Of a stretch of 64,000 nucleotides of DNA, positions 15,905 to 37,831 are shown in pieces; the stretch's first letter is position 1; each line of letters starts with the position of its first letter. The notes beneath the pieces were generated by a model, which was not told the DNA's origin, did no database searches, and saw nothing but the letters and a program-made list of their open reading frames with translations. The position numbers were made by a program, and so were the translations under genes. This stretch comes from Mytilus trossulus (taxonomy: Eukaryota). The stretch is taken from assembly GCF_036588685.1 (NCBI RefSeq), contig NC_086373.1, positions 30,814,001 through 30,878,000 of the forward strand. The letters are read 5' to 3'.

Positions 15905-18900
15905 ATGCTTGGGAATATCTGCCTGTGCCTTATCAGCATTGTAATACATTATACAACAGCAACTATTCAATCATTATACTGTCCACCTACATATAATAAA
16001 TGTCTGTATGACAGAAGTAGCAATTCAAGACCAAAGGACGTACCAGGAGAGGAAATTGTCAGTTATTGCATTAATAAGTTTTTATGGGAAAATCCTCCAT
16101 TTGACTATAAGGAAGATGATGAAGTATTGAATTTTGTGAGACAAATGTTTGTTAAATCCCAGTTTGATAAGAAAAAGAAAAAACTGTTTGTTCGGAAAGA
16201 ATATAGAATGCTGACAAAGAAGGAAAGAGAAAAATACCATGCAGCTATCAATAGACTAAAGAATGATAAGGTAAAGAATTGTTTTATAAAAATATTGACG
16301 CGTACAGTTCAGTTGAAAATAACCATGTAAAATCTACCTGACAGGTAGAAACCAGTTAAGATCATGCCTTCATAATTTTGACCGTTATGGAATGACCGTT
16401 CCAAAGGAGGATATAGGACATGTTCCTTATGTCGTAACTTTTAACAAATGTGACCTACCGAATTAGACTTTTTGACGGGGTTTTAATAACATGAGCAACA
16501 CGACAGGTGCCACACGTGAAACATAGATTTTCGTATCCCAGGCAAAGATAACCTTAGCCGTATTTGGCACAACGTTTTGGAATTTTGGATCCTCAATGCT
16601 CTTCAACTTTGTTCTTGTTTGGCTTTATAAATATTTTGAAATTAGCGTCACTGATGAGTCTTATGTAGACGAAACGTGCGTCTGGCGTACTAAATTATAA
16701 TCCTGGTACCTTTGATAACTATCTGCTAACCCTTCCGGAGCACCCAAAATCAACCCCAGTTTTTGAAGGGGTTCGTTTTGCTAAGTCCTTAGTTTTTTAT
16801 GTTGTGTCTCGTGTACTATTATTTGTCTGTTCGTCATTTCTTTTATAGCCATGACGTTGTAAATTTATTTTCGATGTATGAGTTTGACTGTTCCTTTAGT
16901 ATCTTTTATCCCTCTTTTAGGACGATAAGGCACAATTTACAAAACGTACAGTTCTTTGAGAATAATAAGATAAAATACAAGATTGATATTTGCCTGACAC
17001 GTTCTGACAATGGGGACCAATGTTTTAACTAAAACATTGAAATGACACTGACACGTACAGATCGTTTTAATCAATTAAAGTTAAAATATTGTAGAAATAT
17101 TGTATAATGCTTGTTTGTTGTTTTAATTTAAATAACACACTTTCGTTGTCAGTTTGTTTTAGATTTATGAGTTTGACTGTCCCTTTGGTAGCTTTCGTCC
17201 CCCTTTTACAACTTTTTTAATAAACGTTTGTTATCATGTCAGCTTGTATTCTTTATCAAAAAGTCCTTGCTCTTACAGTGGCGGATCCAGGGGGTTGGGG
17301 TTCCGGGGGTAACCCCCCTTTTTTGGACGATCAATGCATTTGAATGGGGACATATAGATGGAACTGCCCCTTTTTTTCTGGGTTGGGAACCCCCCTTTTT
17401 AAATGGCTGGATCCGCCCCTGCAGACTTACACTTGCACTCTTTAACTGTTTCAAAACATATACTGTAAACCAACTTTCGCGAGTAGAAAAATAACGCGAT
17501 ATTAAATCGTCGCGAAAAACAATAACTTGGATCATTTCCTATGAAACTACATTAAGTAAATAAGTACATCGCGAAATTTAGTCGTCGCGAAGTTGGCTAG
17601 CTGGGAATAAACGCGAAATAAAGTATCCGCGAAAATAAGTTGGTTTACAGTATTTGAGTATTTGAGAATTGTGTGTTGATGGTAATTTTGTTTACCTCTG
17701 TTTAAACTATTTAAACTAATTCGTGACTCGAGACGATTGACACATCGCCACAAAATGGTCAGTTTATTTTCAACTTTGGGTTTGAATGTTCCTTTAGTAA
17801 TTTTTTGCCTCCCTTTGAAGAGCACCTTTCTTTCTACTGTCTTTTAATTTTTTTGTGTGTCGCTTAGTTGCTGTCTCATTGGTGTTTAACCCAGATCTTT
17901 TTTTATTCATAATACTTATAATTGCAGCTAACTATATTTCTTCTCTCTATTGCTTGTGTTTATATTGCAATCATAGAGGTGGGACACATGATTGCAGATC
18001 CGATCAGAGTAGCACATTTTGTTATGATAGACTCCAAAAGAGTATGTCCATTCTAAAAAAGATAAATTTTCGAAGGGAAACGAACAATTGAAAACTTTAA
18101 TCTGTTAGTTTTCAAATTGACTGATTGATTGATTCTGACCGCAACTGTTATCAAACTGGAGATAAAGGATACTACAGATACAGTTAAGTCGGCTTCATAT
18201 CTTGACTTACATCTCAAAATTGACAATGAGGGTCGGTTGAAAACAAAACTTTACCACAAAAGAGATGATTTCAGCTTTCCAATTTTGAACTTTCCATTTC
18301 TAAGTAGCAACGTTCCAGCAGCACCTGCATACGGGGTATATATCTCCCATATGATACGATATTCCCGTGCTTGCATTTACTATCATGATTTTCTTGATAG
18401 AGGGTTACTGCTCACAAGGAAGCTATTAAACCAAGAGTTCCAAATGGTGCAGTTGAAATCATCCCTTCGTAAATTTTACGGACGCCATCACGAGTTGGTT
18501 GACCGTTATGAAATAACCGTTTCACAAATGATATCGGATATGTTCCTTACGTCGTAACTACAATCCCCTTCCCTTTCATGCATGTGACCTACCGAATTCA
18601 TTAATCACATAAGCAACACGATGGATGTGGAGCAGGATCTGCTTACCCTTCCGGAGCACCTGAGATCACCCCTAGTTTTTGGTGGGGTTCGTGTTGTTTA
18701 TTCCGTAGTTTTCTATGTTGTGTCATGTGAACAATTGTTTTTCTGTTTATCTTTTTCATGCTTAGCCATGGCGTTGCCAGTTTGTTTTAGATTTATGAGT
18801 TTGACTGTCCCTTGTGTATCTTTCGTCCCTCTTCTATCAATGTTGGCTATTTTATGATGGGCAATATGCATTGGTTGAGGAATCCAGGGTGCTCGTAGAG

Positions 18901-30670: not shown

Positions 30671-32003
30671 TTAAGTTATGAAAAAATCATGCATCTAAGA
30701 CTAAATTGTCAATCCGTACATCCAACATCATATAGGTTTAGTGTAAAGACGTCATAATCGGTCAGAGAAAAACATGACATTGTGCAATGCCAAGATACAA
30801 GTATTGACAGATTATATATCCATGAATGTGTATATGTATATAACATACTCGAAATATGCTTTTAATTTACTGATAACAAAATCAATATTTATACCAATAA
30901 AAACAATATTCAATTATCTTATTACAGTGTTGCTTGGTAACCTTTTAGAATAAGTTTATTTAAAGGAGCGATAAGTTTACCAGGATCATTTCTAAATTTC
31001 CTGGCACGATTAACAACAATTCCGTAAAAATGAGGATGTGCTATCCCGTTTGAAATAAGTTTTCTACGGGTACAACCAAAATTCAAAACCAAATCTTTAT
31101 ATCTATAAAAAAAAAAATAGTAAAGGTTTTTAGTAATTTATGGTTACGAAATCCCTGGCTTAATTATTTACCAGTAATAGATAGATTACGTTTGTAAAAA
31201 TCAAAAATGTCACAACAGACACTGGTATAGCGAACGAGGTGTGAAATATAAACACCGTAAGATGGTGCCAAATTACCATCTAACTGTGGTTTAAATTTGA
31301 TTTATTTAACGAAAGTCTATTGGGGTAAGTTTCAGCAGTATATTGAGAAAATTCTTGATTATTTTATTATATTGAACGAAAAAAATTCTTCAAGATAATG
31401 GTAAGTGATGTTGAATATATCAATTAAATCCAATTTCGGCGGGACGTTTCTGAGTTTGGTCATAAACTGTGATTCATAACAGTACAAAAACAAGTCTGCT
31501 ATTAAAGGGGCGCAATTAGTGCCCATAGGGATACCTACAACCTGTCGATAAACTTTGTTGCCGAAACGTACATTAATATTATCAGGGGGGAAATTAACAG
31601 CTTCAATCATCTCATAAGTATATCTAGCATATTTACCTTTCTCGTTAGAGTAAAAGGCTTTAAATGAGTTATAGCAAATATATTGTTTTCAAATTTACCA
31701 AATAGATATAGGAAGATGTGGTGTGAGTGCCAATGAGACAACTCTCCATCCAAATAACAATTTATAAAAGTAAATCATTATAGGTCAATGCACGGTCTTC
31801 AACACGGAGCCTTGGCTCACACCGAACAACAAGATATAAAGGGCCCCAAAATTACTAGTGTTAAACCATTCAAACGGTAAAACCAACGGTCTATTCTATA
31901 TATAAAAAAAACGAGAAACGAGAGACACGTATAAATTACATAAACAAACGACAACTACTGTACATCAGATTTCTGACTTAGGACAGGTGCTAATGACCAT
32001 GTA

Positions 32004-34912
32004 CACGGTGGGTATGGTTGTCCTGCGAGAGAACGTACTGTGCTGGTGATTCGGTCCTGACGGGTGCTGGTGATCAATGAAAAAATGTAAACAAAGACGA
32101 AAATGATGATTTTTGACGTTTTCACTCATAAAAAATGGAAGAAAACAGTTGAGATTTTTCAATTTCGTTTCTTATGGGTTCATATATAAACCATTAAAAA
32201 ATTGACCCTCTAAACTGTTTCAGTAAGCGTAACACAAAAATGCTCATTTTCAGAAAATCTCGAACTGAAAAAATAAAACAAAATGCTCATTGAGTCCGCT
32301 TTCTATACCGCAATCCACACGACAAAACAATTTTGTGAAAAAACATTGCAATTTTAAAATTTAGCATTTTCTCAATTTAGTCATGTCCTGATACTGTGCT
32401 GGTGGGTCCTGTCATTGTGCTGGTGGGTCCTGATACGGTGCTGGTGATTTTGGATAAGAAGTTGGTCATATTTGAAACAAATGTTACAAAATCAATACAG
32501 TTAGCCAGATAATTGTTGCCAACAGGATCTATAACTCCTATTTTAGCTCTTGTGCATCCATTTGGCTGTTTAATATGTGTTTTCAAATGATCTGAACTTG
32601 TATTACATAATAACATAAAAGGGCAACATCTTTCGTCCAATATCAGATAACAATATATAGTATCTAAAATAAGTTAAAAATTCCACATTACTATATAATT
32701 CATTTTATGTATTTTTGTATTTAAAATGATTCGTTGTAACGAGAATATTTGTGGTGAATGGAAACTGTGAGGGTCACAATCTTAAATTGCTTATAAATGT
32801 TGCTGGACCCAGTTTCGTTATCTGATCTGAATTTTCTAAAATAAGCAAGGTAGATAGACATTTTGATTTTTTTTACTCGATAATGAACCATTGTGTTGAT
32901 CCCATGCTAAACATAACAAAAATCTCTGTACAAAGGTCTGTGAATTCTCTACAAAAATAGTGATTTTATTTTCACTAAATTCTCTTTTTCTACTAAATAC
33001 AATGCTTTGCAAGAAGTTTCCCCTTGATATATATACAAAATTATATCTCTATTATTCATTGTCTGTGCTGTTTTGATACTATTGCAGTTTGCACATTTCG
33101 GAATTGACAGGCCACAGGAGGGGTCATAAACCGTGCACGAAAAGATAAAATATTGATATAAGTACTTAATTTGCATCTTTGAACCCCCACCCGGTTTGTT
33201 TTTTAGGAGCCTGTGGTGTTTAAAAATGGTCGATTACAGACAGCTGAGTACGCATTTTCCAGGCGTGTTATTGCATGTTGATTGTTAAAGTCCTGAAAAC
33301 GGATAGATGGAAACAAAAATGTTTGATATATCTGGCTTTAGATTCAGTTTTTTTTAAATAAAAATTAAGGCTACATTATAATATAATAGTTCTATGAATT
33401 CACAATATAAAAAAATGCAGAAAAAAAAATGAATGAAGTGAAATATCTTAGTAAGGAGTCATTACTACAGAAATGGTGTGTTTGACACACAACACTTAAA
33501 AGCTTAGTGATATATATTTCCAATATTAAAATAAAAGTGTATTTTAGTTGGGTATTTTTTCCATTTACTCATTTCAATTATAATCAAGGCACATTTTATT
33601 TTTATTCATGAAAAATATTTAAATATAGAAAAGAAGGGCACATTGTTCACTTCCTCCCCCGTAATTCTTTATCAAAAATATTTATTTTGAAATGAAAAAG
33701 CTAAGAAATCTTAATTTTGTTAGTGTTCTCTATGTTATCTCGTCTTCATTCTCTGACATATTCTAGCCTGCCCTTTCATAAAATAGTGATTTTTTTTAGT
33801 GTTCTATCGAACTTTCGAAAAGAAAAAAAACCTGATAACCGTTTAGACAAAAAAAATATGTTGGAAAAATCTAACAGCAAGTGATTCTTAACAGCTATAA
33901 GATACATTTTTCTTTTACAATACAACTTTTAAATCTTACGGGAAACTTTTCCAAGCTTTCACTGTAACCTCGCTCTAACTTATCCCCATCCCTCCCCACC
34001 CCTACCCTCCATCCCCCAAAAAACACCAAACAAACAAACCCGCAATACTATTGTCATTCTTATAGTCAGCACTCAATTGTTCACAAACAAATGTGTTTTA
34101 AGCTGCTAAAGACATGATTCAAACGCTCAGAAAGTCCTTTGTTCTATATTTTTGCTCTCCATTTTTATGTAAAACCTTTTACATTTTTATTTTATGGGTT
34201 ATTGTTGAAGGTCGTACGATGACGTATGTTTGTTAACACATACTTCCTTTGGTTTCTTATGGAAATTTGTCCATTGACAACAAACATACCACATCATCTA
34301 CTTTATATAAGTAGTGTTTAAACTATGTACAACGTATTTTGGTGATCTTGCAAAATGATCGTAATCCCGAAAATCGTAAACATATTTTCTTATCTTAAAA
34401 GGGGGCAAGAAGGGTTCCATTAACAGGCCAATAAATAAGATTACAGTTAATTTAGAAAAAAAAATAAAAAAATAGGGGTATTTTTTCTCTCATAATAACA
34501 GTAAACAGATTCACAACAATGTCAATTTCAAGAAAGCAGACAACAGCTAATTAGTCAATAACAGTACAGCATCAATGATCTTGAATATATGCCACTTTTA
34601 ACTAAAATATAAAAGCACAGAACCAGGACATAGAAGCACAGAACCAGGACCGTTTTCTTATCACCAGAACAGCGTCAGGACAATTCCGTTTAACGAACTT
34701 GCACGACTTTTGCAATATAATATTGTTCTAATATACTTTGCATAGTACTTATGACACATCAGAGAAAAATTAAGCAACAAAACAGTCGTTTTATTGCCGT
34801 TCTGATACAATGTAAACAAACCCACCAGCACAGAATCAGGACCCACCACGACCCGTCAGGACCAAATCACCAGCACAGTACGTTCTCTCGCAGGACAACC
34901 ATACCCACCGTG
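32004..34912. mobile_element. 2.9-kb non-autonomous DNA transposon with ~60-bp TIRs starting CACGGTG and a 5-bp TSD (Transib/RAG-like signature)
   Basis: CACGGTGGGTATGGTTGTCCTGCGAGAGAACGTACTGTGCTGGTGATT.GGTCCTGACGGG is inverted at both ends. Flanks are ATGTA and ATTTA. ~21-bp subterminal repeats (GTGCTGGTGGGTCCTG) occur at both ends. No transposase ORF. Confidence 0.8.
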
Positions 34913-36498
34913 ATTTAATTAAAGATCATTAAAAAGGAAAACTCTTGTTTGATAAGATAGTATGGAAGTGAAGTGTAAAGAATAGAAAAATCAAAACTGT
35001 CAACAGAATCAAAAGAACCATTAAAAGCACGTAATCTATCTAAAACATCCAAAGTTTTTTTTACACTATAAAATTGTTAATTCCACTATGTTCATATATT
35101 GTATTACAATAGTTTATGATAATATAAGCTCTTTAACGGTAGTTAAGGAACTAGTTAAAAGCACTGAAAGATTAGTTGTTGAACACTAACTAGAGACCGA
35201 GATGGAACGATATTGACATGTTTTTGTGTAGTTCATGTAACCAATACATAGTCGAGAACTTCAAATGTTCAGAAGAACCTTATGATGGTTTTGTTGTGCA
35301 TCTATTGAGTTAAGCCATTCGCAATCGATTTTTACAAATTGTTCGTATGTTGTGCTGTTATATCAGTCACAGAGTATGGGGGTTGAGTGCTCACATACAT
35401 GTTCAAACCCGCCATGCTCTTCATGTGCCTGTCACAAGTCAGAAGTCAGTGTAATTTGTTGTTTGTTGGTGATTCATGTTTCATATATTTGTTTTTCGTA
35501 TATTGCATTGTTATAAATAATGCCGTCAGTTTTCTCGTTTGAATGGTTTCAAATTTTTAATGTGTAGGTCTTTTGTGGATGACAAATACGGTATTGGAAT
35601 TTCTCATTACGGTGATCTATAATTGCTTAACTCCTATAAAATTGAAAATTGAAAGTGAACACGTGGAAATCGTGTTTTTCAATGTTCGGGGGCGTTTTAT
35701 TTAAAAAAAAAAACAAAAAAAAACAAAAAACCAAACACACGTTACGTGGGAGTGTTATATTTTTAATAGAGTAACGTTCCTGTTAAAAGAAACAACACGG
35801 TGCTGTTCTCAAATTAATATGCATTATAAACATTCATAATTATAAATTACTTTATTAAACAATTGTTAGATATGCTGTTAATAATTGAAAATTCAGTTTA
35901 ATGTTGTGTTAAAATTGAGATTTGCTTTATGTAGAATTGCTATTGTTTGCATTTTTTTTATTTACACCAATGCAATTAGATTCTTTATATTGCAAATCTG
36001 AACACACACAGCAAAAAAATGCTTGAATTAATTATATTTGTCACTATAACAACAACTGAACAATATTTCAAAGTATTTCTTATGTTGCACTAAAACACCA
36101 CTGTTTTATATTAGGGGAGGGTTAAACACTCACATATATTTTTCAAACCCCACCACATTATGTATTTCTGTCTTGTGTAAGGAATGTGTTATTCAGTGGC
36201 TAATTTTGGTTGTAGGTGGGGTTTTTTTTTTAATTGTTCTGTTATAAATCAGGTCGTTGGTTTCCTCGTCTGAATTGCTTCATTTGTTTCATATCAGGGT
36301 ATTTCATTGCTCTCTATATACGTTAGGATTTTAACCTTTGTTTGAAGGCCGTTACAGTGATCTGTGATATTAGCTTGCATCTACCTCATTTGGTCTTGAT
36401 TGGACTGTTGTCTCAATGCCAATCATACCACATCTCCTTGTTTTCATGTTGAAATTAGTGATGCTGCCTTTAAAACAAGAATTTATTTTTTCTAAATT

Positions 36499-37831
36499 GA
36501 CACTCATGGACGAATTCAAACTATACATGATATATGCAAAACATGAAGATTTCCAGATTTTATTGTACTTTTCGAATCATCGTACGGCTTGATCAATATA
36601 TACAGTTCGCCAAAAGTTAAGCACCACCTTTTTTTTATTGCACCGAATTTTTTTTTCAAATTCAAAAAAATTAATATTCCTCGAATAAAAGAAAACATTA
36701 ATGTAGCAATTTTGCTAACATATACGTGTATCATAAACAAATCACAAATATAATTTTGGTCACTTATGGAGGTTCTAGGCATTCATGTTTTGCTTTAATA
36801 AAAATAGACTAGTGTAAATTACACAAATCAGAAACGGAATTTAAGTTTCATTGTGATTTTATTTTTTTACAACAATTAATCATCCAATATCATTAAAATT
36901 TTCTACACATAGTCTTTGGTATGTTCGGCAAATTTAATGTCAATATTTGTTCCAATAGGATGTGTAACAACCTCTCTTCAAGACCGGTATAGTTCCATAA
37001 CACGACGGCTCAAACTCGGAACACTTCAAAACTTTAGTTCAGGATATCTCTTTCATTATCAACAATTGCAACTTTTAAATCGACAAAATTTTGTGAAGGT
37101 GGATTTCTGCATTTGAAATTTCTGCCAATGGCATCCTAGACATGTTCGATAGGGTTTATGTATGGAAACATGGAAGGCCAAAAGATAGAATAAATAGTAA
37201 TTTGCTCTTTGGACTCGGTTACAATCCTTGTCCTGTGTGGTCTAGTGTTGTCGTCCATGTACAAGGGCCTTGAACATGTTGATGCAAGTGGAGAATTATC
37301 AAAATGATGGACTACAATGCTTATAGGCACCAAATATCTGTAAGTCTGTCCGTTTATGTTACCCTGCAGAATATGCAAAACACAGCTTATAACGGTATAA
37401 GAAGCAACGCCGTACTGTAACATCACCAGCACGGAATGCAGTCATTAGGCAAATGTAATTTGGGCAAAGGCCGTTTTATTTCCCCGCGAAACTCGTATAA
37501 TGACATCTACGGGTCGTAACAGGCACCGACTCTCATCTGACGAATGAGTATCCTGACAGCTTCTCGTGTTAAAGCATCGATAGTCATTATCCCATTGAAA
37601 CTTGCCTGTCTGTTAGGGCAGGTCTCTTGACAACACAACTTGGTCCTCGGGTCTTTCTATGAAGCCGACGGACCAATATTCGAACACTAAACCGACCAGC
37701 CGGAGAAACAATATTGTTTTTCAATAGGATTTTACACAATCTCGATATACTACCACCTAGTTTATTAACTCCTCATTTTATTTTATTTTTGATTATTTGA
37801 AAATTCTTAATGCATTTACTCCATTGGCGTA
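36499..37831 (-). mobile_element. Decayed Tc1-like transposon (transposase remnants ~36955-37720)
   Basis: YMDDNTRPHRTRIV...WPSMFPYINPIEHV resembles the DDNARPH...WPxxSPDLNPIEH motif, with a C-terminal RGCYTSY. The ends are degenerate and approximate. Confidence 0.75.

What the first reader, a model, noticed from the sequence alone, without database searches (positions are those of the whole stretch)
32004..34912. 2.9-kb CACGGTG-ended transposon with 5-bp TSD: Transib/RAG-like signature in a mollusc
Seen: ~60-bp near-perfect TIRs begin with CACGGTG, a 6/7 match to the V(D)J RSS heptamer CACAGTG. The host Penelope-like RT rejoins as AATGACC-ATTTA-ATTAAAG, which shows a 5-bp duplication (ATGTA left with one substitution, ATTTA right). 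Arrays of ~21-bp subterminal repeats lie at 32035-32075, 32385-32450 and 34610-34850. Known: CAC...GTG termini with a 5-bp TSD characterise Transib and ProtoRAG/RAG-like transposons, whereas Chapaev makes 3-4-bp TSDs. There is no ACAAAAACC nonamer at 12 or 23 bp and no transposase ORF. Inference: this is a non-autonomous member of a possibly undescribed, recently active family whose autonomous partner may be elsewhere in the genome.
Basis: partly seen in the sequence, partly recalled or inferred. Interest (0 to 1): 0.7.

Follow-up and report, generated by a model that had tools for sequence, protein, structure and literature searches.

The report
Mussel jumping DNA, five-base footprint
A 2.9-kb gene-less jumping element with several hundred copies in this (likely mussel) genome duplicates five AT-rich bases where it lands; its ends resemble those of the transposon group that includes the ancestor of the antibody-gene recombinase RAG, but the enzyme that moves it was not found, and the link to RAG itself is likely distant.

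Summary
32004-34912 is a non-autonomous cut-and-paste DNA transposon with 69-nt CAC...GTG inverted ends and two arrays of a 20-bp motif at each end. It splits a decayed Penelope-like RT. The first 26 TIR bases occur 753 times in the genome (about 375-400 copies). Of 56 two-ended copies, 45 have an exact 5-bp duplication and 5 a one-mismatch one, so Chapaev-type 3-4 bp is ruled out. Copies are about 2% from consensus.

The Transib/RAG reading is only partly supported. Three described Transib/RAGL end features fail: GC-rich target (24% GC against 31% background; consensus about A-W-W-W-T), AA at TIR positions 35-36, and the A-rich block at 8-10. No transposase relic lies inside the copies. Insensitive searches found no Transib or RAG1-like gene in the genome. 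They did find young Chapaev/DUF1280-like transposons, but with other ends.

Best reading: moved in trans by an unidentified CMCT-clade transposase outside described Transib/RAGL families (0.45). Rivals are canonical Transib/RAGL (0.27) and hAT5 (0.18). This scan noted similar CAC/5-bp elements without a partner in other genomes. Repbase and Dfam were not searchable.

The parts
32004..34912 (.). Non-autonomous TIR DNA transposon, 2909 bp, A-type copy; it lacks about 190 bp at element nt 707 that other A-type copies carry
31999..32003 (+). Left target-site duplication, ATGTA (one substitution)
34913..34917 (+). Right target-site duplication, ATTTA (original target; restores the host RT reading)
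32004..32072 (+). Left TIR, 69 nt, starts CACGGTG, holds two copies (one partial) of the GTCCTG-N4/5-GTGCTGGTG motif
34844..34912 (-). Right TIR, 69 nt, 96% complementary to the left
32385..32446 (+). Inner left array: three motif copies at 21-bp period, about 380-440 nt from the end; inferred transposase-binding sites
34823..34842 (-). Third motif copy next to the right TIR
34610..34681 (-). Inner right array: three more degenerate motif copies, about 230-300 nt from the end
32879..33133 (.). Decayed copy (74-82% identity) of another dispersed host repeat carried inside the element
34927..35264 (-). Host Penelope-like RT relic, upstream part (homolog residues 46-157)
31371..31685 (-). Host Penelope-like RT relic, downstream part (homolog residues 167-273)
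31690..31990 (.). A different high-copy repeat that also interrupts the host RT; not part of the element (bounds approximate)

Best explanation
This is a gene-less cut-and-paste DNA transposon with CAC...GTG ends that has spread to several hundred sites and duplicates five AT-rich bases, and it was likely moved by a transposase made elsewhere, most likely a RAG1-fold enzyme of the CMCT clade (CACTA/Mirage/Chapaev/Transib) that lies outside the described Transib and RAG-like families. Shown: ends, copy number, 5-bp TSD, target bias (y-A-W-W-W-T-r), lack of coding capacity, two interior types (A about 3.1 kb, B about 4.4-5 kb) sharing both ends. Inferred: the transposase binds the 20-bp motif repeated at 21-bp (two helical turns) spacing in two arrays per end, pairs the ends, cuts at CAC and inserts with a 5-nt stagger; the main burst is past (copies about 2% from consensus). 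The 'non-autonomous TIR transposon with 5-bp TSD' part deserves about 0.97, a CMCT-clade mover of any kind about 0.7, and the confidence given is for the narrower claim.
For: Family: 753 exact matches to the first 26 TIR bases, control 0; 45 of 56 two-ended copies with exact 5-bp TSD, 5 with one mismatch, 3 four-bp, 2 six-bp, 1 none. Non-coding. CMCT lineages share CA..TG termini and make 2-5 bp TSDs (PMC12730594, passages); CAC..GTG is invariant in Chapaev (PMC4079192, passages). Target: A at the first TSD position in 51 of 90 sides (p 2e-5), G just outside in 1 of 90 (p 7e-6), TSD GC 54 of 225 against 31% background (p 0.02). Chapaev3 elements insert at TWA between A and T, the same five-base frame; reading this as kinship is my inference. 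Chapaev/DUF1280-like transposase families have been recently mobile in this genome (DUF1280 equated with Chapaev in PMC3985635). TSD length and TIRs are labile within the clade (bioRxiv 10.64898/2026.08.26.747230, passages).
Against: The mover was not found. None of 25 Chapaev/DUF1280-like loci read for 10 kb on each side carries this TIR or motif. Described Chapaev elements make 3-4 bp TSDs, and 5 bp with CAC is the textbook Transib pair (PMC1131882). Arrays of subterminal repeats and AT-rich targets also fit hAT (AT-rich targets: main-text passage, though the caption of that paper's Table S2 says GC-rich; subterminal repeats: recalled), and hAT transposases were not searched in the genome. 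The A-W-W-W-T bias at the inner positions is weak and close to genome composition.
Confidence: 0.45

Rival explanations
1. It is a non-autonomous member of canonical Transib or of the RAG-like (RAGL/TransibSU) transposons, whose autonomous partner is absent from this assembly or was missed.
For: CAC termini plus 5-bp TSD are the described hallmarks (PMC1131882; PMC7204232). RAGL elements exist in oysters and in the mussel Modiolus. Occasional 4-bp TSDs (3 of 56) occur in RAG-mediated transposition. The genome searches are insensitive: controls rang nowhere, and a true Transib protein scores below the PF12940 cut-off.
Against: Target not GC-rich; no AA at positions 35-36 and no AAA at 8-10; no match to the protostome RAGL TIR consensus beyond CAC. 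PF12940 0 matches; KWGxDG pattern 40 hits against 30 control, 30 of 40 translated and none a Transib frame; verified Transib protein 0 matches; RAG1L motif 7 hits against 19 control, none RAG1L-like by eye. A mollusc survey found one Transib element among 14,275 ORF-bearing DDE elements (PMC10294476).
Confidence: 0.27
2. It is a non-autonomous hAT5 element: a Blackjack-related hAT transposase binds the subterminal arrays and makes the 5-bp duplication.
For: hAT5 is defined by 5-bp TSDs and sits among animal hAT families (PMC12730594). hAT is among the commonest DDE superfamilies in molluscs. Asymmetric arrays of subterminal binding sites are a hAT trait (recalled).
Against: A CACGGTG end fits CMCT better than the hAT ends I recall. 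No hAT relic inside the copies. hAT5 terminal sequences could not be retrieved (search listing only), so this rival is untested.
Confidence: 0.18
3. The mover belongs to another superfamily with an atypical 5-bp footprint, for example a Tc1-type or Ginger2-type enzyme or an unnamed lineage.
For: The two-array layout recalls the IR/DR ends of Tc1 elements (recalled).
Against: Those notes concern fungi and GC-rich TSDs. Only the outer 69 nt are inverted here, not the stretch between arrays. Not tested in this genome.
Confidence: 0.1

Closest known systems
Transib and its non-autonomous TransibN families (PMC1131882, passages)
   Same: CAC...GTG termini, 5-bp TSD, many non-autonomous copies
   Different: Target is AT-rich, not GC-rich; no AA at the nonamer-equivalent positions 35-36; symmetric 69-nt TIR with internal 21-bp arrays; no transposase shown
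Protostome RAGL / TransibSU / ProtoRAG transposons (PMC7204232, PMC4411706, PMC10629977, passages; PMC9435367, whole text)
   Same: First three bases CAC, 5-bp TSD, occurrence in bivalves, non-autonomous TIR pairs known
   Different: No match to the CACTWMCAAA-type consensus or the A-rich TR2 block; no RAG1L or RAG2L; no spacer asymmetry in the TIR; TSDs not GC-rich
Chapaev and Chapaev3 (CMC group; PMC4079192, passages)
   Same: Invariant CAC...GTG ends; AT-rich target, with Chapaev3's A-TWA-T frame resembling the A-W-W-W-T bias here; related transposases are present in this genome
   Different: TSD is 5 bp rather than 3-4; the Chapaev/DUF1280-like families found here end in CAT...ATG and share no end sequence
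hAT5 (Repbase group, as cited in PMC12730594)
   Same: 5-bp TSD; subterminal repeat arrays are typical of hAT (recalled)
   Different: Termini could not be compared; no hAT sequence in the element

Membership tests
Class II TIR transposon, non-autonomous | TIRs, dispersed copies with unrelated flanks, fixed-length TSD, no transposase | tested here: met
Transib | 5-bp TSD | tested here: met
   45 of 56 exact, 5 with one mismatch
Transib | CAC at TIR positions 1-3 | tested here: met
Transib | AA at the RSS23 nonamer positions 5-6 (TIR 35-36), conserved in 21 families per PMC1131882 | tested here: not met
   CT at 35-36 on both ends; feature. Transib TIRs are reported to be labile.
Transib | [quoted passage not shown] | tested here: not met
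   TSD 24% GC; 15-bp site 33% and 35-bp site 31% against 31% background, 45 sites
Transib | Transib transposase in an element with the same ends | tested here: inconclusive
   Not found with these queries; searches insensitive, no positive control genome
RAGL / ProtoRAG | Convergent RAG1L and RAG2L genes between the TIRs | tested here: inconclusive
   None in 40 copies read for ORFs or in the atypical copies read later; RAG1L motif not found; RAG2L not searched
RAGL / ProtoRAG | A-rich block next to the heptamer (AAA at 8-10, TR2) | tested here: not met
   GGT at 8-10; feature
Chapaev / Chapaev3 | CAC...GTG termini | tested here: met
   feature
Chapaev / Chapaev3 | 3-4 bp TSD | tested here: not met
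   3 of 56 four-bp, none classed as three-bp
Chapaev / Chapaev3 | Chapaev transposase in an element with the same ends | tested here: inconclusive
   25 related loci read, none with these ends; only one lineage (CxWC motif and its protein relatives) was sampled
CMCT clade (broad) | CA..TG termini and 2-5 bp TSD | tested here: met
   feature. Not unique to the clade.
hAT5 | 5-bp TSD | tested here: met
   feature
hAT5 | hAT transposase in an element with the same ends | not tested
Any catalogued Repbase/Dfam family | Sequence match to a library consensus | not testable with these tools
   No such library is held

The most novel reading that the evidence does not exclude
The family marks an undescribed CMCT lineage that joins Chapaev-like AT-rich targeting and subterminal binding arrays to the 5-bp stagger of Transib and RAG, showing that the 5-bp footprint is not tied to GC-rich targets or RSS-like ends; its transposase is still to be found in a Mytilus genome.
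Probability: 0.3. Interest if true: 0.6.

Novelty: new member of a known kind. Interest (0 to 1): 0.3.

Why it matters
As it stands it is an ordinary kind of object, an orphan non-autonomous transposon family, now with well measured ends and target. It is a caution: CAC plus a 5-bp duplication is not enough to call an element Transib or RAG-like. If the partner proves to be a CMCT transposase outside Transib, it would be a natural test of which parts of a RAG1-fold enzyme set stagger length and target GC preference. If it proves to be a RAGL, it would be a recently amplified one in Mytilus with non-RSS-like ends.

Tried and rejected
1) RAG1 family PF12940 in the genome: 0 matches, control silent. 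2) DUF1280 PF06918: 0 matches, control silent, although DUF1280-like genes were later found by motif, which shows how insensitive the family search is. 3) KWGxDG pattern (motif recalled): 40 hits against 30 control; 30 of 40 translated, no Transib frame. 4) A Transib protein from metagenome contigs (HzTransib structure 6pqn at 3e-118): 0 matches in the genome; its profile finds nothing in the copies. 5) RAG1L motif taken from the PMC7204232 supplements: 7 hits against 19 control, judged by eye only. 6) A third interior type: after element nt 670, 3 hits, all B-type; a motif closer to a CACNGTG end, 4 hits, all reading as point variants of this family, judged from the matched letters; divergence at TIR nt 76, 68 hits, 17 loci fetched, none with a transposase of its own. 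7) Long or unpaired copies (one of 17.6 kb, 14 unpaired, one of 13.5 kb) hold nested elements or are truncated. 8) Chapaev/DUF1280-like loci as partner: rejected, other ends; their profile finds no relic in the copies. 9) The TIR and the Transib motif in viral contigs: 0 each. 10) Rfam on 31000-36000: 0. 11) RNA reads lie thinly on both strands along the element, 823 reads on the stretch, with no start or end peak: no sign of a transcript of its own. 12) An empty-site test in other individuals gave no answer, so polymorphism of this insertion is open. 13) The HzTransib structure paper is not held, so a recalled likeness between its TIR and this one is unverified and was not used. 14) Weak Utp12 hits below cut-off on the right-end frame: treated as chance. 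15) A search for the Chapa zinc-finger motif was not obtained.

Full report
Observation. The element runs from 32004 to 34912 (2909 bp). Its arms 32004-32072 and 34844-34912 are 69 nt long and 96% complementary, and both begin CACGGTG. A motif GTCCTG-N5-GTGCTGGTG occurs in two arrays at each end, mirror-oriented: inside the TIR and at 32385-32446 on the left, inside and next to the TIR and at 34610-34681 on the right, mostly at 21-bp period. Its 11-mer core has 8 matches in the window, 7 of them in the element, against 0.29 expected. The flanks are ATGTA and ATTTA. The host is a decayed Penelope-like RT on the minus strand: a homolog aligns with residues 46-157 right of the element and 167-273 left of it, and the junction with the right-hand 5-mer reads LIKWS against the homolog's LIKWA. 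The name Penelope-like rests on my recognition of the RT motifs, not on a family hit (one search gave none). A second, unrelated repeat of about 300 bp also sits in this RT.

Host. The window is G000:C1:30814001-30878000 of a 1.30-Gb assembly. A protein from this genome is 97% identical to a Mytilus galloprovincialis protein, so the host is likely a Mytilus mussel. Twenty listed runs from 15 studies under several organism labels hold parts of the element; four were laid.

Family and TSD. The first 72 nt match 40 of 40 scored places at 100%, out of 1087 candidates. The first 26 nt match exactly 753 times, control 0 (only the first 100 places are listed), which suggests about 375-400 copies, a few of them assembly duplicates. 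Of the 39 other top copies, 38 had the right end within 6.8 kb and 34 of 38 had an exact 5-bp TSD. Pooling all fetched two-ended copies, including atypical ones that I picked on purpose, gives 45 of 56 exact 5 bp, 5 with one mismatch (this copy among them), 3 four-bp, 2 six-bp and 1 none; lengths 422 to 13,534 bp, median about 3.2 kb. Chance per copy is about 0.002. The sample is biased to the best TIR matches on contigs C1 and C2. There are two interior types, A and B, that part at nt 670 and share both ends. Median divergence from consensus is 2.2% for 17 A copies and 2.7% for 11 B copies; the closest long pairwise match among these copies is 98%. So the burst is recent but probably past.

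Target. In 45 sites the TSD is 24% GC against 31% background (p 0.02); 15-bp and 35-bp windows are 33% and 31%. A is favoured at the first position (51 of 90 sides, p 2e-5) and G is avoided just outside the TSD (1 of 90, p 7e-6). Transib, ProtoRAG and RAG prefer GC-rich targets (PMC1131882; PMC10629977). Chapaev3 inserts at TWA between A and T (PMC4079192), a similar five-base frame; the comparison is my inference and the inner positions are only weakly biased.

Coding capacity. This copy has no frame of 100 aa; among 40 copies the longest is 208 aa and lies in a stretch that no other copy shares. Of 74 frames of 45 aa or more from three copies, none reaches a Pfam cut-off. Transib and Chapaev/DUF1280-like profiles find nothing in the copies. 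The interior holds decayed pieces of other host repeats.

Search for the partner. PF12940 and PF06918 gave no match, with silent controls. A KWGxDG pattern was at chance level and 30 of its 40 hits held no Transib frame. A true Transib transposase, fished from metagenome contigs and checked against HzTransib and BbeRAG1L structures, had no match. A RAG1L motif gave 7 hits against 19 control. A general CMCT motif gave 36 hits against 11 control, 15 of them one group of transposase genes. One protein of this group (P0121, 641 aa) is nearest to DUF1280 and RAG1 clusters in the Atlas at 0.90-0.93 (a lead only); it has no significant Pfam or PDB hit, and a relative scores weakly on RAG1 (E 0.007). 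It has 77 matches in the genome. I read 10 kb on each side of 25 such loci: none carries the TIR or motif, and the two families whose ends I could define end in CAT...ATG. Three junction patterns meant to expose a copy with the same ends and another interior found only variants, deletions and nested insertions (17 of the 68 places were fetched). These searches are coarse. The family search missed genes that the motif found, so the absence of Transib or RAG1L is 'not found with these queries'. hAT and RAG2L were not searched.

Mechanism. Shown: defined ends, dispersed copies, a 5-nt staggered insertion with a weak A...T preference, no gene. Inferred: a transposase supplied in trans binds the repeated motif, the 21-bp period placing sites on one face of the helix; it pairs the ends, cuts at CAC and inserts. 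The CAC ends point to the CMCT clade (about 0.7). Within it I favour a lineage outside described Transib/RAGL (0.45) over canonical Transib/RAGL (0.27), because three described end and target features fail while Chapaev-side enzymes have been active here. hAT5 (0.18) and others (0.10) remain.

What is known. Papers seen: passages of PMC7204232 (plus a term search of its 9 supplements, one cut when stored), PMC1131882, PMC10629977, PMC10294476, PMC12730594, PMC4411706, PMC4079192, PMC3985635, PMC4455052 and bioRxiv 10.64898/2026.08.26.747230 (21, supplements not seen); the whole text of PMC9435367 with a supplement term search that found nothing. Figures with TIR alignments were not visible. 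Searches (listings) showed no description of this family, but Repbase, Dfam and the bivalve library in the supplements of PMC10294476 were not seen and may hold it. This scan has no look-alike of the sequence and several notes on CAC/5-bp elements without a partner in other genomes, one probably a mollusc (unchecked).

Verdict. A real, well defined family; a new member of a known kind. It works like a CAC-ended CMCT element with a 5-bp stagger. It should not be filed as Transib or RAG-like until its transposase is found.

Noticed in passing
G000:C6:about 64.00 Mb, C9:about 67.46 Mb, C12:about 45.86 Mb, C57:about 1.047 Mb (L244-L245, L248-L253); second family at C3:79.65 Mb, C6:23.64 Mb, C9:68.55 Mb (L228-L229, L242-L243, L290-L291): Two young families (98-99% identical over most of their length, 8-9.7 kb) of Chapaev/DUF1280-like transposons with short TIRs ending CAT...ATG. 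Of 7 copies only 1 shows a flanking 2-bp duplication, so they either leave no TSD or insert into CATG and duplicate AT. One copy at C12 has a 640-aa open frame. Possibly more novel than the finding itself.
   Followed up: partly
G000:C3:63982150-63984072 (P0121) and C5:85719855-85721579 (L264, 765-aa open frame): Intact-looking open frames of the same RAG1-like/DUF1280-like group; relatives in Mytilus, Mercenaria, Tubulanus and Patiria are unnamed proteins. Ends were not defined for these two.
   Followed up: partly
L315 (G000:C7:61049888) and L316 (G000:C8:5432273): Two copies carry insertions (about 1.7 kb and 4 kb) at nearly the same spot in the TIR, nt 33-36, and the two inserts begin with similar sequence; the L316 insert holds a 196-aa frame that looks transposase-like by eye but has no Pfam hit. 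Possibly a site-preferring element.
   Followed up: partly
L071 (inside the 17.6-kb copy at C1:74031660-74049250) and L080: Harbinger-like transposase frames (judged by eye) nested in or beside copies of the family.
   Followed up: no
L085 (G000:C2:36486427): A 422-bp two-ended miniature derivative of the family.
   Followed up: no
window 18150-18554: Another Penelope-like RT fragment, 88% identical in protein to an RT nested in the copy on C29.
   Followed up: no
window 37136-37441, minus strand: A 101-aa frame that looks by eye like the C-terminal DDE part of a Tc1-type transposase relic.
   Followed up: no
L086 (C3) and L088 (C42): Two copies 99.4% identical including flanks, probably the same locus assembled twice; copy counts are slightly inflated by such duplicates.
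   Followed up: no
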